A stretch of 62,948 bases of DNA, the filler included, from Chrysochromulina tobinii (taxonomy: Eukaryota): the NCBI GenBank assembly GCA_001275005.1. It is 5 parts of 5 records of this genome, joined end to end, with 100 filler letters (N's around TTAATTAATTAA, not from the genome) between each part and the next. Parts side by side here need not be neighbours in the genome. Positions count along the whole stretch, not along the records: positions 37,908 to 62,948 come from JWZX01000856.1; 4 more parts are not named here. The stretch is one strand, 5' to 3'. Shown here one piece after another: positions 6,730 through 62,447 of this stretch; positions within the stretch are counted from its first letter, which is position 1; each line of letters starts with the position of its first letter. The notes beneath the pieces were generated by a model. The model saw only the letters and a list, made by a program, of their open reading frames with translations. It searched no databases and had not been told where the DNA came from. Made by a program: the position numbers and the translations under genes.

Positions 6730-8132
6730 TTACGTCTCGTCCGCGCCACCGTAGAGCTCGCCGAGCTTGCGCGTGAAGTCCGCACCCGCGACGGCGCGCC
6801 CCGTCTTGCCCGCTCGCCCGACCGCGAGCTTCGATCTCGCGCGATCTGGCGACGCCTCGTCCTCGACCTCAAGGGCGCCGTCGTGGGCGTCGTCCTCGCT
6901 CCACTCGTGTGCCCACAGGGCGCCGCCGTGGGTGCCTCCGTCCGCTGCGTCGGCTTCGGCCGCACCGGCCTCCACGGCCGCCGCTCGTAACCACCGGTGA
7001 CGTAACGTCTGCTCGGCCGTGGGACGCTGTGGGGAACTCGGCGCACGGGAGCCGTTGGACGAGATCGCAATCAGGGGCCATCAGGGGGCCAACGGAGATG
7101 CATCAAGGGGGCCCTCAGGGAGGGCATGGTGCGGGCCATCGTGGGATGATCACCTGTGTGACGTCAGCGCAGAGGAGCCGTTGGACAAAACTTCGGGCGG
7201 CGGGGCTGAGCTCGCGTGCGAGCTCCGCGTGGGAGCTCATCGAGATTCGTAGCTCGACGTCGCCCGCGGAATCGCCGGAGAAGGCGGGCGTGTTCTGAAG
7301 GACCTGCGCTCAGAGAGAGGCCACGAGCGGGCGATGCAATCAGCATGCAATCAGAGAGCTCACCTGATCTCGCAGCGCTCAGAGAGAGGCCACGAGCGGG
7401 CGATGAGAGAGGGCATCAGGAGATGATCAATGTGGTCATCAAGGGCGCCGTTTCGAGCACCTCGAGGGCGACGGCGCCCAATGCCCAAAGAACCCCCCAT
7501 GTAATCAATGTAATCAATGTAATCAATGTGTTCATCTAGGGCGCCGTTTCGAGCACCTCGAGGGCGACGGCGCCCAATGCCCATAGATCCACAGGCGGAC
7601 CGAGATAGCCCGTCTCGGCCAAATTAGGCAACGGTCGGCAAAGTTCAGGCGCCTGGTATCTGATGACCTCGGGCGATTGGTAACGGGCGCCTGGTATCAC
7701 GCGTTCACGTAGCCGCCGGTTGCCGCAGACGACCGCGCAGCCAAAGTCACAGATCTTTATCCTCGTGCGCTGAGCATCGACGAAGAGGAGGTTCGAGGGC
7801 TTCAGATCACGATGGGCAATGGCGAGACGATGCAGATGCGCCAGCCCGCTCGTCACTTGATACAACAGCGCCGCCGCCTCGTCCTCGGGGTAACCGCCAG
7901 CCGAATGCTCAGCACGAGGCTTGTTCCGCAGCCGCGCGAGTGCAAAGTCGAGCGAGCCACCCGCGCAGTATTCAAGGATCAAGTGCGTGGCCGATCCCGT
8001 GCTGATCTCGGCAAGCATGTTGGCGATGTGAGGATGCCCGTCGCCGCCTAATTGCGCATTGCCTAATTGGGCATCGCCTAATTGCGCATTGCCTAATTGG
8101 GCATCGCCTAATTGGTGCTCACGCAACCTCCG
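6730..8132 (-). CDS. Ser/Thr protein kinase (CAMK/AMPK-like), 5'-truncated at contig end; introns about 7304-7556 and 7027-7133
   Basis: HPHIANM, LILEYCAGGSL, AHRDLKPSN, KICDFG, YQAPE, PVDLWALG, then spliced VLQNTPAF and RPTAEQTLRHRWL; stop at 6730. Confidence 0.85.
8047..8115. repeat. 15-bp tandem repeat (CCTAATTG(C/G)GCAT(T/C)G)n
   Basis: About 4.5 copies, reading QLGDA/QLGNA on the minus strand, next to the contig end. Confidence 0.85.
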
Positions 8133-8232
8133 NNNNNNNNNNNNNNNNNNNNNNNNNNNNNNNNNNNNNNNNNNNNTTAATTAATTAANNNNNNNNNNNN
8201 NNNNNNNNNNNNNNNNNNNNNNNNNNNNNNNN
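8133..8232. other. Artificial contig linker
   Basis: 44 N + TTAATTAATTAA (stops in all six frames) + 44 N. Confidence 0.98.
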
Positions 8233-12396: not shown

Positions 12397-12496
12397 NNNN
12401 NNNNNNNNNNNNNNNNNNNNNNNNNNNNNNNNNNNNNNNNTTAATTAATTAANNNNNNNNNNNNNNNNNNNNNNNNNNNNNNNNNNNNNNNNNNNN
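12397..12496. other. Artificial contig linker
   Basis: N44-TTAATTAATTAA-N44. Confidence 0.98.
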
Positions 12497-20757: not shown

Positions 20758-20857
20758 NNNNNNNNNNNNNNNNNNNNNNNNNNNNNNNNNNNNNNNNNNN
20801 NTTAATTAATTAANNNNNNNNNNNNNNNNNNNNNNNNNNNNNNNNNNNNNNNNNNNN
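20758..20857. other. Artificial contig linker
   Basis: N44-TTAATTAATTAA-N44. Confidence 0.98.
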
Positions 20858-37807: not shown

Positions 37808-37907
37808 NNNNNNNNNNNNNNNNNNNNNNNNNNNNNNNNNNNNNNNNNNNNTTAATTAATTAANNNNNNNNNNNNNNNNNNNNNNNNNNNNNNNNNNNNN
37901 NNNNNNN
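37808..37907. other. Artificial contig linker
   Basis: N44-TTAATTAATTAA-N44. Confidence 0.98.
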
Positions 37908-53936: not shown

Positions 53937-55451
53937 TCACACTGGAGTCCGAGGCGGATGCGACGGCACCACCGAGTGCACGATGACGTTACGACCTTCG
54001 AAGGCGAGGCTGCTGATCGCTGATCGCTGCACGCCGCTCGCGCCGCCGCCCTCAACGGCGCCGAGGCTCTCTAGGTACTCACAAAAGTGCCCATGGCTCT
54101 CGACAGCCTTGCCTCGCAGCCGCCGGTGCGGGTTACTTTTGGGGAAGACGCAACAGGGGACGACGGCGAAGCGTTTACCCTCGCGCAAGGCGGCGCGCAC
54201 GATGGGCTCCGTGGCCTGGTCGGGATGCATTCCAACGACGATGGAGACGTCGCGCCACAGCTGTGCGTGTGCACCAGTGGGGAACCTCACGTCGTCGAAC
54301 CAGCCACACACCTGGCGGGGCAGGCATGCGTCACTCACCCCCTCCTCCGCATACGCGCTTGCCCATGAGGGGGGGATGGCGACCTCATCCGCGCTGGGTA
54401 CGTCGCACCCCTCGCACGGGCCACATCCGAATGAGGCCTCGGCCGCACCCTCAGCCGCACCGTCGGCAGGGGGCTCGCCAGCGGGATCGCCCGCTATGGC
54501 GCCCGCACCCTCGCCCTCTCCTTCGGTGACCTGTGGGGAACCCGAACAGCCATTGGCCGCAGCCGCCATCACCGGCGCCGTAGCGGGCGCCGGCGCTTCT
54601 GGCAGCGTCGATGGCGGAGGCTGCGGCGACGACGGCCCCGGCGCGCCGGTGCTGCGCGTGCCGTTCGCCCCGGCGACCCACCATGATGCAGCGGGCGGCG
54701 GCGCTGCGCCGAGCACTTCCTGGGCTTTCACGCGACTGCGAAGGGCGCGCCGCTGCTTCGCATTGAGCTTCATCGGGCGCGGGTCGACGACGGTACACGG
54801 CACGCCGCGGCGGAAGGCGAGCTCGAAGGCAACGCCGCCCGCGCCGCCCGCCACGTCCAGCACACCCGCGCCCGAACGCAACGTCTCAAGCCCGAAAGAC
54901 TCCACGAGCCACGCGACAAACTGCTGGTGGCGCGACTCCGTGTTCGGCCGCGTGTGGCTGCCGCTGTGCTTGAAGCGGACGCGTTCCGTGGCCGCCGAAG
55001 CATTGCTGGCCGCCGGCTCGCGCGGGGTTTCCGGAATCGTCACCACGCCCGCGTCGCCCTCGGCCGACGATACGAGCACCTGCACGACATGCAACGATCG
55101 CTCTCCGTCCTCGGCCACCTCCGGAAAGCCGACCAGCTCGACGTGAGCTGAACCCACGCCGGCGCCATCGCTCGATGCGGAGGCGCACGCATGCAGCGTC
55201 GACACTAACAGCGCAATCTCTGGCTCGTCCAGGCAGCCCTCGCGAAACTTGGCGATGCACTCCCAGCTGGCGATGATGCTGGGGCCACGGTGCGCAGGCA
55301 CGTCCAGCTTGAAGAAGACGAGGCGCTTGGACACGGCGCGGACGGACTGAGGGCGCACGGTTCCGCAGAGCGCGTAGCGGAGGTTTGGGTGCTTCCCTGG
55401 GCTCAGCGTGTGGGTCGCGGGCGGAGCGGACAAAGTCACCTCGTCCTGCAT
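53937..55451 (-). CDS. Uncharacterised SAM-dependent methyltransferase-fold protein
   Basis: VLDVAGGAGGVAFEL, TVVDPR, VGMHPDQATEPIV, FAVVPCCVFP. Confidence 0.8.
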   Translation of the reverse strand: MQDEVTLSAPPATHTLSPGKHPNLRYALCGTVRPQSVRAVSKRLVFFKLDVPAHRGPSIIASWECIAKFREGCLDEPEIALLVSTLHACASASSDGAGVGSAHVELVGFPEVAEDGERSLHVVQVLVSSAEGDAGVVTIPETPREPAASNASAATERVRFKHSGSHTRPNTESRHQQFVAWLVESFGLETLRSGAGVLDVAGGAGGVAFELAFRRGVPCTVVDPRPMKLNAKQRRALRSRVKAQEVLGAAPPPAASWWVAGANGTRSTGAPGPSSPQPPPSTLPEAPAPATAPVMAAAANGCSGSPQVTEGEGEGAGAIAGDPAGEPPADGAAEGAAEASFGCGPCEGCDVPSADEVAIPPSWASAYAEEGVSDACLPRQVCGWFDDVRFPTGAHAQLWRDVSIVVGMHPDQATEPIVRAALREGKRFAVVPCCVFPKSNPHRRLRGKAVESHGHFCEYLESLGAVEGGGASGVQRSAISSLAFEGRNVIVHSVVPSHPPRTPV

Positions 55452-55670
55452 TCCGCAAAACAAAATACCGTACTGAGATGAAAAAGGGAAAAGTACAACA
55501 AATAATGCGTGCAGAAGCTCCACAGCGAGACGTGTGATCTCGTGCGGGGAAAAGTTGTTTTCGAAAGTTGAGCGCCGCCAAACACTTGCTGTCGAATGGC
55601 GAAGCTCAGCCTGCAGGCCCACTATTCCAGCGTCGTCCACCAGCATCACAGTCTTCGCACAGTCCACCAA

Positions 55671-58600
55671 ATGAGAGGGTTGAATGGTGGAGTCTTACTC
55701 GTCGCCGCCGCTTTGGGCGCGCGCGCCGAGAGCGCAACCTCCGCCCCCTTTGACGAGGCGCCTTGGGCGAGCCGTCAGCTTCTTCTCGGCGCCACTTCTC
55801 CTTCCCCGCCGTCGCAGCCGACCCCCTCTGTTACTGGCGCCGAGCACCCTTGTAACAGATATGGCACCGACTGCGCCGACTGCGGACCAGGCCAGCCGCT
55901 GCCACCACCGGCGGTCAGCCCATCCCCCTTGCGTGCTGGCACTGGCATCTGGACGACGGCGTGCTTCTTTGCATCAGCCGAGTGTTTGGACGGCGGCCCC
56001 GGCTCCGAGCTCCTGATGTGCGCGTACGGCACCGACTGCGTCGACTGCGGCGCGCGCAACGTGTCGCCGCCCCCGCCGCCACATTCCTCTGGCGTGGTGT
56101 ACACGAACGACTGCCTCAACGCCGGCGACAGCGGCGGCCCTGGCTCCAAGTTCGCGACGTGCGCCTTCGGCACCGACTGCGTCGACTGTGGCCCGCGCGT
56201 CTCCATGCCATTGCCGCCTCCACGGCCACCAGCAGCGCATCCGGCACCCAACCCACCGCCGAGTAGCATCTGCTCGACCCCGTGCTTCTACACCTCCAAC
56301 GCTGATTGCGATGATGGCGGCTTCGGCTGCCTGATCTGCGCCTACGGCACCGACTTGACAAGCTGTCGCGAGCACCCTCCGCGCCGTCACAAGCATAGAT
56401 CGCGCGGTCACGAGCGCGCCCCCGGTCGCGCTGTCGCGAGCACCACCTGCGCCGTCGCGAGCACCTTCTGCGCCGTCACCTCCCGCGCCGTTGCATGCAC
56501 CATCCGGGCCGTCGCAAGCCCCACCCGGGCCGTCGCGAGCACCAACCGGGCCGCCGCGATCACCACCAGCGCTGCTGTGAGCACCATCTGCGCCGGCATG
56601 GGCACCTTACGCGCCATCGCGAGCACTGCACGCGCCGGCATGGGCACCATACGTGCCTTCAAGGGCAGCTTCGTCATCATGGGTAACATACGTGCCGTCG
56701 TGAGCCTTCCGCGCGCCGTCGTGAGCCTCACACGCGCCGTCGTGAGCATACTTTGCGCCATAATGGGCACTCGTCGCCCTGTCGCGAGCACCTCCCACGC
56801 CGAAGGGAGCACCAACCGCGCCGTAATGACCACCAACCGCGCCGAGCACTTCCCGCGCTGCCACGAGCGCACGCGCCGTCGTGGGCACTTAACGTCACCG
56901 CCCCCGCCGATGCCCCCACCCAAGACGCCACCGTGCCGTTCGGACTCTGGCCTGACGCCACCGCCTGCGACCTCGCCGACACATCCGACCTCGGCAACAC
57001 ATCCGACCTCGCCAACACATCCGATCACACGCTCACATACCCAAAGGCCCGATGGACACGGTGAGATCTGGTTGGAGACGCGGCTGGAGGCGGCTTCCAA
57101 TTGGTGGCCAGTCACCAGGCAGCTACCCCTGCCTCTCGCTCTGCATGGCCAGTATCCGTCTGGCGACACTTTGTTGGATGCATCCGACTGCCTGAGGAAC
57201 CAAGTGATCCCCGTGCTGGCCGGTCGCGCCCACACTGTGTCCTCGTCCAGCAGCTCACTCGGTGATTGGCCAACGGATGTCCTTCACACGCAGTGTGCAT
57301 TCATAGTGTGCGCAGGCAATGTCGTGGCAGAAGTCGTCGGCTCGCTGCCCTTCCACGCTGCGCTTATCCCCGCATCGTGGGACCACCTGCTTGCGCCAGA
57401 TGGGGCGGTCGCTGCACTGGGCGATCACGTGATCCTCGACGCCAAAGAGCAGGTGCGCGACCAGCGGCCCACAGACGCCATCGTCCCAGGATTGTGGATG
57501 CTCGGGCAGCGCCTGGCTCCAGATCTTCGTAGCACGGTTTCGGCAAAGAGCCTTTATCTCCTTGGGTGCACGGCAAAGAGCGATGCTCTTCTTGCGTTGG
57601 AAGCCGAGCAACAGCAAGTCCTCCTGGCGCTCCATCGAGGTGCGATCACGTCCTCTTTGAAAGGCTCTGCTAGCCATTTGGTGGCGCGTGCTTGCAATCT
57701 GGTGGCGCCTGCTGACAGGTTGGTGGTGGTGCTAGCTCGCCTTTTGGCGACGTCTGCGTTCCTTCGGCTGGCGTCTGCTCGCTTTTCGGTGGCGTCTGCT
57801 CGCTTTTCCGTTGCGCCTGCTCATGATTTGGACGGCGGCAGCATACTCAATCCACGACAGTTGGTGCTGTGGGGGTGCATGCTGATGGGATCGCTCATGG
57901 CATGGCATCATCGTTTTGCGAAGCCTCCTTGCACTCGGCCTCGGCCTCGAGAGGAACATAAGCTGCAGGTTACCCTCACTCTCCTTGCATTGTACAGCAT
58001 GCTCCCCTGCACCAAGGCCAGCGACGCTCCCGGGCTGTACGAGCATCCTGTGCCCAGCCACCGCCGTGAGCTGCAGACGGCAGTGAGAAGCAGCGCCGGC
58101 CTGACCAGTGCACTCGCCAGCCCAACCGTCGGCCACATTGTCCTTGCCTCCGGCACCTACTACCTCAGCGCCGAGCTCAGAATCACCAGGAGCGTGATCA
58201 TCGAGGCGGCCGTGGCAGGCTCGGTCGTGCTGCACGCGCAGGCGAGCTCCTCGAGTCCGCGTCGTGTGCTGTACATCAGCCCGGGGTCGAGGGGCGTCGT
58301 GCAACTGTTCGGGCTCAAACTCACGGGAGGCCTCACCATCTATGTGCGTGCTCATATGTTCAAATGTTCCCATCGCCCCCATGGGAAGATTGCTGACGCG
58401 CTTGCCTCGACTCTCGCTTGTGCAACTGCGAACGCATCGGTGAACTATACAAAGGGGGTGCGTGCCACAGAGACCTTGAAAACTTCCCATCGCCCTGATG
58501 GGAAAATTTTTGTGCTGACCCGCTTACCTCGACTCTCACTCACACAACTGCGGCCGACGCTCCGGTCAACAACAGCAAGTACGTGCCGCAGAGACCTTCA

Positions 58601-60950
58601 ACTATCCCATCGCCCCGCTGGGAAAAATGCTGACGTGCTTGCCTCGACTCACGCTTGCACAACTGCGGCCAACGCTCTGATCAACTCCAGGGGGTGCGTG
58701 ACGCAGAGACCTTCAAAAGTTCCCATCACCCCAATGGGAAAATTGCTAACGTGCTTGCCTTGACTCTTGCTTGCACAACTACGAACGCTTCGGTCAACTA
58801 CAGAATGTACGTGCCGCATAGACCTACAACTATCCCACATCGCCCCGATGGGAGAATTGCTGACGCGCTTGCCTCGACTCACTCTTGCACAACTGCGAAC
58901 CCTTCGGTCAACTACAGTATGTACGTGCCAACTGTAGACCTTGAAAAGTTAAGTTCCGATCGCGCCAATGGAAAAATTGCTGACGAGTTTGCCTCGACTC
59001 TTGCATGCACTACTGTGGCTGACGCTTTGGTCAACTACAGGAAGTATGTTCTGCAGAGGACCTCTAACTTTCCCATTGCCCCGATGGGAAAATTGCTGAC
59101 GTGCTTGCCCCCGACTCACGCTTTGCACAACTGCGAATGCTTCGGTCAACTATACAGGGGGTGCGTGCTGCAAAGACCTTGAAAACTTCCCATCGCCCCG
59201 ATGGGAAAGTTATTGCTGACGTGCTTGCCCTGACTCACGCTTGCACAACTGCGGCCCACGCTCTGGTCAACTGCAGTGGGTATGTGCCGCACAGAGACCT
59301 GAAATTTCATCACCACCGCCCTGATGGGAAAATGCTGATGTGCTTGCCCCGACTCTCGCTTGCACAACTACGAACGCTTCGGTCAACTACGAACAGCGGG
59401 TACGTGCCGCAGAGAACTTGAAAAGTTCCCAACGCCCCCATGGGAAACTCACGTTTTGCTCTTTGTTTGTGTAGGGCGGCGGTGTCTACGTCTCTTCTGG
59501 CACGGTCTCGATAACGTCTTCCTCGATCACCGGCAACACAGCTTCTGGAATTGTGCGTGCTTATGTGCAAAACTTCCCATCGCCCCGATGGGATGCCTTG
59601 CTGACACATGCCCAAAACGACTCTCATCTTTTATGATGGGTGCTGCCTCGATCTACCAGTATGGGGTACGTGCCATCTGGGCCTGAAACTTCAAAAGTTC
59701 GCATCGCCCCGATGGGAAAGTTGCTGATGAGCTTGCCACGACTCACGCTTGCACAACTGCGGCCGAAACTCCGGTCAACTACAGACTGTACGTGCCGCAG
59801 AGGACCTCTAATTTTCCCATGGCCTCCATGGGAAACTCACGTTTTGCTCGTTGTTTGTAGGGCGGCGGTGTCTACGTCTCTTCTGGAACGGTCTCGATAA
59901 CGTCTTCCTCGATCACCGGCAACACAGCTTCTTATGTGCGTGCTCACACTCCAAATCTCCCATCGCCCCGATGGGAAAGTTGCTGACGTGCTTGCCTCCG
60001 ACTCACGCTTTGCACAACTGCGAATGCATCGGTCAACTACAGTGGGTGCGTGCCACAGAAACCTTGAAAGTTCCCATTGCCCCCATGGGAGACTCACGTT
60101 TTGCTCGTTGTTTGCAGGGCGGAGGTGTCGCCGTCTCGTCTGGCTCAGTGACCATTGATTCGTGCACCATCACTGGCAACACAGCTCTCTATGTGCGCGC
60201 TCATCCTCAAAAGTTCCCAATGCCCCAATGGGAAATCTGCGCCCCGATGGGAGACTCACGATTTGCTCGTTGTTTGCAGGGCGGCGGTGTCTATGACTCG
60301 TCGATGTCTGGCACAGTGGCCATCTCATCGTCCACCATAAGTGGGAACTCTGCTAGCTCTGTGCGCGCTCACGCTCTCAAAAGTTCCCATTGCCCCGATG
60401 GGAAAAATTCTGACGTGTGCTTGCCTCGACTCTCGCTTGCACAACTGCGAACGCTTCGGTCAACTCCAGTTAGTACGTGCCACAGAGACCTTGAAAACTT
60501 CCCATCGCCCGCATGGGAGACTCACCTTTTGCTCGTTGTTTGTAGGGCGGCGGTGTCTACGTCTCTTCTGGCACGGTCTCGATAACGTCTTCCTCGATCA
60601 CCGGCAACACAGCTTCTTATGTGCGTGCTCACACTCTAAATCTCCCGTAGTGACCACTGTGTGCCCGTAGTGACCACTGTGTCGTCGCGTTCCCTAATAC
60701 TCCCCCTGCCCAGGGGCCCAATGTCTATGTCAGCAGTGGAGGCACAGCAGTCTCCAGGGCAACAAACCTCACCGGCGTCTCTGGCACAGTCTGGAATTTA
60801 ACTCTGGGTAGTTATATACTGATCGGACTGCTAGCGTTGGCTTTCGTCTGGCAGTCGTTGCGTGCTGTCGTTGCTTGCTGTCGTCGAGAGCAAGATTCCT
60901 GGCAAGTCATTATTGACGACGACGCGCCGAACGATCCTCAGTGCGCATGA
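55671..60950 (+). CDS. Surface protein: signal peptide, YGTDCxDCG repeats, Pro-rich linker, RRELQ motif, parallel beta-helix (GGGVYV...GNTA) repeats, TM helix. Constant exons: to 58343, 59475-59552, 59861-59935, 60118-60192, 60280-60360, 60546-60620, 60714-60950. Alternative start 57879/57897
   Basis: Beta-helix cap HIVLASGTY; each repeat exon is bounded by YAG and GTGCG, all phase 0; last exon reads GPNVYVSSGG...GSYILIGLLALAFVWQSLRAVVACCRR... Confidence 0.75.
58344..60545 (+). repeat. Homologous ~115-bp intron units enclosing 3-nt (one 6-nt) candidate micro-exons
   Basis: Unit = GTRCGTGCC...TTCCCATCGCCCCGATGGGAA...GCTGAC...GGTCAACTACAG + NNN; 13 units carry AG-N3/N6-GT. Confidence 0.9.
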
Positions 60951-61360
60951 TGAAGACGAACCACCCACTGATTGCGATTGGGCGCCTCGCTCCCTCTCTG
61001 AGTGCCATCGCGCAGAGAATCGACAGGCAGGGCGCTCTGCCTGCCAGTGACTGCCTTTTGCCATCTTGACGTCCATTCAGCAGCATAAACGCGCCAAACG
61101 TTGCGGACGGACACCTGCTCCCTTCTTCGCCTGATTGATTGCCCCGAGGGGTGATTGGCGACGACGCGGGGTGTCGTGCACATTCTTCCGCACGTGAGTT
61201 GCACCGATTGCCTTCCCTATGCCTTCCCATGGCGAACGAATGGCGGCGGGTTGCGATTGGTTGCGGCCGACTGGTCGCAATGGACGACCTCTGTGGCAAC
61301 CGAGTGCCTTGGCATTGCACAGCGCCAAAACAGCGTGCGTTCGCCCTCGTGCTTCCACAG

Positions 61361-62447
61361 GCGGGACAAGGCGGCGGCCGACAAGGCGGCGGCCGACAAG
61401 GCGGCGGCCGAGAGGGCGGCGGCCGACAAGGCCGCGGCAGAGAAGGCGGCGGCCGAGAAGGTGGCGGCCGAGAGGGCGGCGGCCGAGAAGGTGGCGGCGG
61501 CGGAGAGGGCGAAGAAAGCTGAAGAGAAGGCGAAGAAAGCTGAAGAGAAAGACGGCTTCGCCCTCCGGCCTCTTCTGCCGGGGACCGACTTGCTGCAATC
61601 GCTCGAGGCGCTGCTCCAGACAGATGGCTCGGAGCTTGGCAAGGGCTCGGACGTGAAGAAAAAGTACGGCGAGTACGACTCGCTCAAGCTCGCGTGTGCG
61701 TGGAAGGTCGACCATCAACGCAACCTGGACAAGTACACGACCGGCGTGAAGCGCGTGCAGAAGGAGCTCGAGATGCTTGAGAAGAAAGGCAAGGATGTCT
61801 CCAATGTTCCCGGCCTGCCCGTGAAGACGGATTGCGTGGGCGGCTTCACCCTCTCGCAGGCTTGCAATGAGGTCATCCTCTTGCATGGTGTCAACCCAGA
61901 TCGGCTGCTAGACCTGCTGTCCACGGGCCTGAACGAGCACTTCGCAGGCATCAACACGGGCACCGCCTTTGGCGACGGCGTCTACCTCGCGGAGGACGCT
62001 GGCAAGACGGATCAGTACGTAGGCCCCGACAGCGCGTACGACCCAAGCAGTGAGCTGCACAAGCGGCTGTATGACGAAACCATGCCCCACCCGGAAGACG
62101 TCCTCTACGTTCTCGTGGTGCGCGCGGCCCTCGGCTTCCCCATGCGCACGCAGCGTACGCTGGTCAAAAAGGCAAAGACACATGACCTTCGAGCCGCACG
62201 GGTCACCTCGATGGACAATGGCGCGCCTATCTTTCCAGTCAGCTGCCGTGAGCTCTCGGCAGTGCCGGGTGTCATGCCAAAAATCTTTCACCATTCGCTG
62301 ATTGCCGAGCTGGGCAAGGATATCGTGCGCTACCGCGAGTTTGTTCTCTTCAACAGCAACTACGTGCACATCGACTACGTCATCGCCTACCACCGCTACA
62401 ATAAAGGCCAGAAGCTGCGCATGACCGACAGTCCCTATCAGGCATGA
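61361..62447 (+). CDS. PARP-like ADP-ribosyltransferase catalytic domain preceded by (AAAEK/DK)n helical repeats; terminal exon, no ATG upstream of the domain
   Basis: [44 protein letters not shown]...YVIAY (H-Y-E triad); acceptor TTCCACAG ends at 61360. Confidence 0.88.

What the first reader, a model, noticed from the sequence alone, without database searches (positions are those of the whole stretch)
58344..59474. Tandem array of nine single-codon micro-exons at a variable loop of a beta-helix surface protein
Seen: between exon ...LTIY (ends 58343) and exon GGGVYV... (starts 59475) are ten homologous intron-like units. Each internal junction reads AG-NNN-GT(A/G)(C/T)GT with exactly 3 nt between acceptor and donor: GGG 58455, CAA 58576, GGG 58691, AAT 58804, TAT 58918, GAA 59041, GGG 59158, TGG 59277, CGG 59397 (G,Q,G,N,Y,E,G,W,R). 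All are phase 0 and none is a stop. The triplet varies while the splice signals, branch-like CTGAC and hairpin are conserved. Inference: alternative splicing picks one or a subset of single amino acids for this loop (up to 2^9 in-frame subsets). That would be a codon-level diversification system, analogous to Dscam exon arrays and Schistosoma micro-exon genes but at one-residue resolution. I know of no description of this, but cannot search.
Basis: partly seen in the sequence, partly recalled or inferred. Interest (0 to 1): 0.95.

Follow-up and report, generated by a model that had tools for sequence, protein, structure and literature searches.

The report
Surface loop spelled codon by codon
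A gene of a freshwater alga, likely a Chrysochromulina, has nine three-base exons in a row; RNA shows five of them joined to their neighbours, so all nine likely add one amino acid each to a variable loop of a predicted surface protein, a rare layout reported before in truffle genes.

Summary
In detail: nine AG-NNN-GT slots lie at the stated places, and four more micro-exons (3, 3, 3 and 6 nt) lie downstream in the same gene. They are real exons. RNA contigs identical to this gene show micro-exons 1-2-3-4 joined (GGG-CAA-GGG-AAT), 4-5 joined, and all four downstream ones included. No listed joint skips a micro-exon. A Dscam-like pick-one switch is contradicted. The likely main product carries all nine codons (loop GQGNYEGWR). 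Micro-exons 6-9 and the full insert were not seen spliced, and depth was 2-6, so minority skipping is not excluded. The gene belongs to a large beta-helix family with named members in Chrysochromulina. Of 63 distinct slots, 60 parse as multiples of three, none encodes a stop, and the triplet is the least conserved part of the unit. Many family copies lack introns, and their long loops carry the micro-exons' codon signature. Variation is seen between genes in DNA; variation by splicing was not seen. Arrays of codon-sized exons are in print for truffle nank genes, so this is a new variant of a known kind, not a new category.

The parts
55596..58343 (+). Long first exon as an open frame of 916 codons: Cys-rich repeats, 21-nt repeats, then the cap and first strand of the beta-helix module, ending ...GLKLTGGLTIY. 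The true start is uncertain: ATG at 55596 or 55671, or a later signal-peptide-like stretch just before the module (judged by eye).
   Evidence: RNA contigs identical to parts of it
58344..58454 (+). Intron 1: main-exon-type donor GTGCGTGCTC, stem, long micro-exon-type 3' half
   Evidence: seen only unspliced in RNA (X3, X5)
58455..58457 (+). Micro-exon 1, GGG (Gly)
   Evidence: joined to micro-exon 2 in X5
58576..58578 (+). Micro-exon 2, CAA (Gln)
   Evidence: both flanking introns removed in X5
58691..58693 (+). Micro-exon 3, GGG (Gly)
   Evidence: both flanking introns removed in X5
58804..58806 (+). Micro-exon 4, AAT (Asn)
   Evidence: joined to 3 in X5 and to 5 in X6
58918..58920 (+). Micro-exon 5, TAT (Tyr)
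   Evidence: joined to 4 in X6
59041..59043 (+). Micro-exon 6, GAA (Glu)
   Evidence: sequence only; unspliced in the X6 contig
59158..59160 (+). Micro-exon 7, GGG (Gly)
   Evidence: sequence only
59277..59279 (+). Micro-exon 8, TGG (Trp)
   Evidence: sequence only
59397..59399 (+). Micro-exon 9, CGG (Arg)
   Evidence: sequence only
58458..59396 (+). Introns 2-9: interchangeable 110-120 nt units with a micro-exon-type donor (GTRYGTGCC..AGAGACC), stem, TGCTGAC and a micro-exon-type acceptor (GGTCAACTACAG)
   Evidence: introns 2, 3, 4 and 5 seen precisely removed
59400..59474 (+). Intron 10: micro-exon-type donor, stem, short main-exon-type 3' half (CTCACGTTTTGCT..TAG)
59475..59552 (+). Coil exon GGGVYVSS...GNTASGI
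59660..59665 (+). 6-nt micro-exon TATGGG (Tyr-Gly)
   Evidence: included in X4 and X6
59785..59787 (+). Micro-exon ACT (Thr)
   Evidence: included in X4 and X6
59861..59935 (+). Coil exon
60043..60045 (+). Micro-exon TGG (Trp)
   Evidence: included in an X5 contig that collapses two coil exons differing at 1 base
60118..60192 (+). Coil exon, followed by an 87-nt intron with no micro-exon
   Evidence: joint 60192-60280 in X5
60280..60360 (+). Coil exon
60470..60472 (+). Micro-exon TTA (Leu)
   Evidence: included in X5; unspliced in X1
60546..60620 (+). Coil exon
60714..60950 (+). Last exon GPNVYV..., a hydrophobic stretch at about 60816 (likely membrane anchor), short tail and stop
   Evidence: joint 60620-60714 in X3; hydropathy 2.04

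Best explanation
The nine triplets are likely all true exons (five are seen joined in RNA) that are spliced to their neighbours one intron at a time, so the main mRNA likely carries all nine codons and encodes one nine-residue insert (GQGNYEGWR) in a loop of a predicted surface beta-helix protein. Shown: introns 2-5 are removed precisely and in no fixed order while neighbouring introns are still present, and all four downstream micro-exons are included. Inferred: each intron is recognised on its own (intron definition), so a 3-nt exon needs no recognition. Inferred: one intron plus one codon is an interchangeable cassette; unequal recombination between the roughly 84% identical units adds, removes or swaps single residues without breaking the frame, so loops diversify mainly in DNA, between genes and alleles. 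Inferred: the intron-less family copies arose from spliced RNA and record earlier strings of micro-exons. The likely role is a variable recognition or adhesion surface; no ligand is known.
For: Own gene, RNA contigs laid at 96% or more (letters checked against the model). X5 joins 58457 to 58803 through CAAGG, which reads GGG-CAA-GGG-AAT with introns 1 and 5 still in. X6 joins 58806 to 58918 (GT..AG) with introns 4 and 6 still in. X4 and X6 each join 59552 to 59861 through TATGGGACT. X5 includes TTA and TGG. That is 14 splice joins that touch a micro-exon, in 5 contigs, all to the nearest neighbour. Relatives: L221 is 100% identical to L218 apart from three precisely missing introns, two of them beside 3-nt exons. 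L206 matches L205 at 98.7% over 1349 nt and then has TTGGAC in place of two introns. Family: 60 of 63 distinct slots parse as 3, 6 or 9 nt, with 0 stops in 72 codons; the majority base is 39/39/59% in the triplet against 82-90% in the nine bases before the AG. Codons ending in AG, which would make a rival acceptor, are depleted (1 seen, 8.3 expected). Intron-less copies: 66 of 156 loops are longer than the 4-5 codons a main exon supplies, up to 21. Their extra codons end in C in 10% of cases, like micro-exons (8%) and unlike coil bodies (49%); the control position inside the main exon has 35%. DNA-level change: L205 and L186 share 98% upstream sequence but have four slots against one in the same loop. 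Units of the window's gene are no closer to each other (84.5%) than to units of other genes (84.3%).
Against: The full 27-nt insert was never seen, nor any spliced joint at micro-exons 6-9 or at either end of the array. Most RNA pieces over the array are unspliced or partly spliced, so finished mRNA may be rare. Depth is 2-6, contigs keep majority forms, and the four runs may be one campaign. In one search only 15 of 98 joints were shown. Two of the 9 joints do not fit the model (58318-60309 with ends AC..TC and a 21-nt side; 60186-60570 with 33 foreign letters); I read them as paralogs. Whether L221 and L206 are RNA or DNA is not established, and L206 diverges from L205 inside the next exon. 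Stop avoidance is significant only through TAG (P about 0.009 for all stops, 0.27 for TAA and TGA alone), and slots are related by descent. The loop codon bias could partly reflect fast evolution of loops. No structure model was obtained.
Confidence: 0.68

Rival explanations
1. Combinatorial skipping, as reported for Tuber nank genes: all nine is one isoform among many, and a sizeable share of transcripts drops one or more codons to give a mixed loop repertoire from one gene.
For: Every slot is in frame, so skipping costs nothing. The precedent is cited in three papers. Intron-less paralogs have loops that differ by whole codons, such as QCAPRSEYSLCF and QCAPREYSNCY. Splicing order in the array is not fixed.
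Against: 0 of 14 joins that touch a micro-exon skip one, and two runs give the same TATGGGACT insert. Whole-codon differences between paralogs are equally explained by DNA-level gain and loss of units, which is seen directly.
Confidence: 0.24
2. The array is an overgrown repeat that is spliced only slowly or partly, so this gene makes little finished mRNA and the working copies are the intron-less ones.
For: No contig crosses the array fully spliced; unspliced pieces are as deep as exon pieces. 33 of 43 readable sequence clusters lack the first intron (my count).
Against: All 13 slots keep frame despite insertions next to the acceptor. The reading frame is open to the last exon, and the downstream part is fully spliced in RNA. 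Long loops with the micro-exon codon signature exist in intron-less copies.
Confidence: 0.07
3. Mutually exclusive choice of one codon out of nine, as in Dscam exon arrays.
For: Only the look of a tandem array of alternatives.
Against: Four consecutive micro-exons are joined in one contig and two in another. Consecutive downstream micro-exons are co-included in two runs.
Confidence: 0.01

Closest known systems
Codon-sized micro-exon arrays of Tuber melanosporum nank (NACHT-ankyrin) genes (Iotti et al. 2012, Fungal Biol 116:261; paper not held, known here only from passages in PMC4986451, PMC3689799 and PMC13449251)
   Same: Many codon-sized exons in an expanded, variable gene family linked to recognition.
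   Different: Here the host is a haptophyte alga and the protein an extracellular beta-helix, not a fungal NLR. The RNA seen shows serial inclusion, not the alternative splicing cited for Tuber. Arrays sit at the loop of many coils, and intron-less copies coexist.
Schistosoma micro-exon genes (MEGs) (passages of review PMC4015677)
   Same: Symmetric in-frame micro-exons in secreted or membrane proteins, thought to vary an exposed surface.
   Different: In MEGs micro-exons make up to 75% of the coding sequence and skipping is documented. Here 13 micro-exons supply 14 of about 1136 codons, the introns are homologous repeats, and skipping was not seen.
Dscam mutually exclusive exon arrays (recalled)
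   Same: Tandem array of homologous units at a variable position of a surface protein.
   Different: Dscam picks one exon per array; here neighbours are joined.
Introner elements (passages of 10.1101/2022.06.06.494994, which lists Introners in a Chrysochromulina genome)
   Same: Many homologous short introns in one genome group.
   Different: These introns were found only at the loop position of one gene family, in tandem, with mixed 5' and 3' halves. That fits recombination between units better than transposition. Other genes were not surveyed beyond this window.
Right-handed beta-helix (PF13229) and Chlamydia PMP-type GGA(I/L/V) repeats (PF02415)
   Same: Intron-less or spliced homologs hit PF13229 above cut-off in 6 of 12 tested and PF02415 above cut-off in 2.
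   Different: Eukaryotic modular proteins with proline-rich linkers; loops are encoded by micro-exons.

Membership tests
Tuber nank-type codon-sized exon array | Runs of consecutive codon-sized, in-frame exons | tested here: met
   9 consecutive 3-nt exons; 5 joined in RNA
Tuber nank-type codon-sized exon array | Alternative splicing of those exons | tested here: inconclusive
   0 skips in 14 joins, shallow contigs only
Tuber nank-type codon-sized exon array | NACHT-ankyrin protein | tested here: not met
   No Pfam hit for the first exon; homologs are beta-helix proteins. It works like the array but is not a nank gene.
Schistosoma MEG | Symmetric micro-exons | tested here: met
   All 13 slots phase 0 and multiples of 3
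Schistosoma MEG | Micro-exons form most of the coding sequence | tested here: not met
   14 of about 1136 codons (exon model)
Schistosoma MEG | Isoforms by exon skipping | tested here: inconclusive
   None seen
Dscam-type array | Mutually exclusive inclusion | tested here: not met
   Micro-exons 1-4 co-included; 4-5 co-included
Introner elements | Homologous introns dispersed at unrelated sites | tested here: inconclusive
   One weak acceptor-like match and one stem outside this gene in 63 kb; no genome held
Introner elements | Target-site duplications or terminal inverted repeats | not tested
   Not examined
Right-handed beta-helix proteins | Profile match of the coil repeats | tested here: met
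   PF13229 in 6 of 12 homologs; the window's own coils were not scanned as one joined protein
Right-handed beta-helix proteins | Fold, and surface exposure of the loop | not tested
   No model obtained; only two weak matches to solved structures at E 1e-4

The most novel reading that the evidence does not exclude
A two-step loop generator. Intron-rich modules serve as templates in which one-codon cassettes are shuffled in DNA and sometimes skipped in splicing. Spliced products are then written back as intron-less modules, which fixes new loop sequences in a large family of surface proteins. This would be a splice-then-reverse-transcribe route to protein diversity at single-residue resolution.
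Probability: 0.3. Interest if true: 0.9.

Novelty: new variant of a known kind. Interest (0 to 1): 0.72.

Why it matters
It gives RNA evidence that a spliceosome can cut out an intron lying between two 3-nt exons while both neighbouring introns are still in place, and can chain at least four single codons. That makes the question of how the smallest exons are recognised testable in a culturable alga by simple RT-PCR. It also shows a way to evolve protein loops one residue at a time by gaining or losing an intron-plus-codon unit. Such layouts in a fungus and in a haptophyte point to convergence. Automatic annotation misses them: a named Chrysochromulina protein model of a relative (P0022) runs from the first exon straight into a later coil with no micro-exon residues.

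Tried and rejected
No genome was held, so a genome-wide count was not possible. Three viral-contig scans: the nine loci were chance matches with no family stem; those were not examined. Covariation in the hairpin found no support (the loop parse is ambiguous), so my idea that the stem ties each donor to its own branch point is untested. Matching expressed paralogs in X1 and X2 to fetched loci by mismatch counts was ambiguous. The intron count (21 of 55) used too loose a pattern and is discarded; I use the reading. The slot list contains false calls at main-exon ends and is used only for comparing loci. Seven loops longer than 21 codons were dropped from the 163 because they span two coils. Absence of RNA cover over 59216-59416 is not counted as evidence. 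A simple recent tandem amplification of one unit was rejected because units within the gene are no closer to each other than to units of other genes. An assembly artefact was rejected. No fold or atlas result was obtained. Literature searches that found no description in haptophytes; most subscription journals are not covered and no supplements were read.
Full report
Observation. Nine AG-NNN-GT(A/G)(C/T)G sites lie at 58455, 58576, 58691, 58804, 58918, 59041, 59158, 59277 and 59397. For each, the only AG within 30 nt upstream of the donor is 3 nt away. Four further slots lie downstream in the same gene: TATGGG at 59660, ACT at 59785, TGG at 60043 and TTA at 60470. With all 13 included the frame stays open from the long first exon through five coil exons to a last exon with a hydrophobic stretch and a stop at 60950. 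Two independent records are identical to the window here (L194, 9656 nt; L245, 625 nt).

Anatomy. The 18 intron segments aligned are built from two kinds of 5' half (after a main exon, or after a micro-exon) and two kinds of 3' half (before a micro-exon, or before a main exon), meeting at a conserved TTCCCA..TGGGA stem. A loop with no micro-exon has one intron. A loop with n micro-exons has n+1 introns, and the inner ones combine the micro-exon donor half with the micro-exon acceptor half. Crossing over between misaligned units at the shared middle would add or remove one intron plus one exon in frame (inference). The stem is conserved in sequence, but covariation gave no support.

The family. 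The last 92 residues of the first exon have 311 relatives at E 0.001 or better among cluster representatives. Of 10 looked up, two carry names from Chrysochromulina parva and C. tobinii, so the host is likely a Chrysochromulina. Six of 12 homologs tested match the right-handed beta-helix family PF13229 above cut-off. One metagenome scan with a 25-letter motif at the end of the first exon gave 99 loci. These fall into 44 sequence clusters, 43 readable; by my count 10 have an intron at this position and 33 do not, many of the latter in DNA contigs of tens of kilobases.

Slots across the family. An automatic parse found 63 distinct slots, 12 from this gene: 49 of 3 nt, 10 of 6 nt, 1 of 9 nt, and three of 2, 8 and 10 nt. 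Of those three, one is unrelated sequence and two have an in-frame 3-nt alternative. None of 72 codons is a stop. The triplet is the most variable part of the unit: majority base 39, 39 and 59%, against 82-90% in the nine bases before the AG. Codons ending in AG are depleted (1 seen, 8.3 expected), which accounts for most of the stop avoidance; TAA and TGA alone are not significantly depleted. Slots share ancestry, so these are not independent trials.

RNA from this gene. Twenty runs were listed and eight were laid; all are assembled contigs. At 85% likeness paralogs crowded the tables and only 15 of 98 joints were shown; exact pieces of this gene there were exon or unspliced. At 96% on four other runs, all 9 joints were listed. 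X5 joins 58457 to 58803 through CAAGG, which equals micro-exons 2, 3 and 4 following micro-exon 1, with introns 1 and 5 still present. X6 joins 58806 to 58918 with introns 4 and 6 still present. X4 and X6 each join 59552 to 59861 through TATGGGACT. One X5 contig includes TTA and TGG and the plain intron 60193-60279. X3 shows the last intron removed. Two joints do not fit and look like paralogs. In all, 14 joins touch a micro-exon and all go to the nearest neighbour. The X5 and X6 contigs differ in which introns are gone, so order is not fixed. Not seen: any spliced joint at micro-exons 6-9, at either end of the array, or the whole insert. Depth is 2-6 and contigs hide rare forms.

Relatives. 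L221 is identical to L218 except for three precisely missing introns. One leaves TGG joined to the next main exon and one leaves GCG joined to the previous one, while inner introns remain. L206 follows L205 for 1349 nt at 98.7% and then has TTGGAC in place of two introns, though it diverges inside the next exon. Whether these two records are RNA is not established; either way the introns were removed at the predicted sites.

Intron-less copies as a record. In intron-bearing coils the main exon supplies 4-5 codons after the conserved Asn in 43 of 46 parsed cases (rough parse). In intron-less coils 85 of 156 loops have 4-5 codons and 66 have 6-21 (163 found, 7 mis-parsed ones dropped). The extra codons resemble micro-exon codons: C-ending 43 of 420, against 6 of 74 in micro-exons and 2545 of 5153 in coil bodies; codon frequencies correlate at 0.75 with micro-exons, while micro-exons and bodies correlate at 0.03. 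A variable position inside the main exon has 53 of 151 C-ending, against 27 of 240 for inner loop codons. I infer that intron-less modules descend from spliced RNA that had kept long strings of micro-exons. Fast loop evolution could add to the bias.

Where the variation arises. L205 and L186 are 98% identical upstream but have four slots against one in the same loop. Units of this gene are as close to units of other genes as to each other (84.3% over 161 pairs, 84.5% over 21), which fits a shared pool of exchangeable units. Diversity in DNA is thus observed; diversity by splicing is not.

Mechanism. Shown: the splice sites are used, neighbours are joined, and order is free. Inferred: intron definition, all-nine inclusion as the main product (0.68), cassette gain and loss by recombination, write-back of spliced RNA, and a role in surface recognition. 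Substantial combinatorial skipping stays open (0.24). Pick-one is contradicted for micro-exons 1-5.

What is known. Three papers state that Tuber melanosporum nank genes diversify by alternative splicing of multiple or tens of codon-sized exons, citing Iotti et al. 2012 (passages seen; the paper itself was not held). Schistosoma MEGs were read in passages of one review and Introners in passages of one preprint. Dscam is recalled. RPS24's three consecutive micro-exons were seen only in a search listing. Searches found no report in haptophytes or in beta-helix proteins. Earlier notes of this scan list similar arrays in other genomes; they are unchecked and are not counted as support.

Verdict. 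A real and expressed array of single-codon exons, a new variant of a rare known kind, with RNA evidence for serial joining. Interest 0.72.

Noticed in passing
L184, L179, L197, L176, L228: Intron-bearing and intron-less coils or modules occur within one gene: L184 has its first coils without introns and later ones with arrays; L197, L176 and L228 keep only the last intron. This suggests patchy intron loss through spliced RNA.
   Followed up: partly
L205:3475-3490, L157:190-205, L174:5040-5055, L241 (match-strand coordinates): Some first exons end directly in a micro-exon-type donor, as if an upstream intron was lost and its micro-exon fused to the main exon.
   Followed up: no
L174:5133-5147 and 6787-6801 (match-strand coordinates): A slot that reads either as a 1-nt exon or, using an upstream AG, as a 15-nt exon encoding CSDCS; Cys-rich loops such as CSSDC occur in intron-less copies.
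   Followed up: no
L169, L193, L231: A 63-codon first loop holds a whole Cys-rich CDDGGPG..C..DC.DCG motif, like the repeats in the window's first exon at about 55840-56350; loops can take up larger cassettes.
   Followed up: no
window 56427-56845 and 57668-57822: 21-nt coding repeats inside the long first exon; RNA contigs of X4 and X6 show rearranged or paralogous forms of the first set.
   Followed up: no
window 61155-62447 (+): Gene with a PARP catalytic domain (PF00644, E 5e-9) after an Ala-Lys-Glu repeat.
   Followed up: no
window 53937-55694 (-): Open frame with a weak methyltransferase match (PF13679, below cut-off), head to head with the beta-helix gene.
   Followed up: no
window 8133-8232, 12397-12496, 20758-20857, 37808-37907: Four pairs of 44-N runs, each pair separated by 12 bases; none lies near the finding.
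   Followed up: no
RNA runs X1 and X2, laid on window 58838-60549: A deeper paralog contig (depth 8.5 and 27.8) has a variant donor and keeps some introns while another junction is spliced.
   Followed up: no
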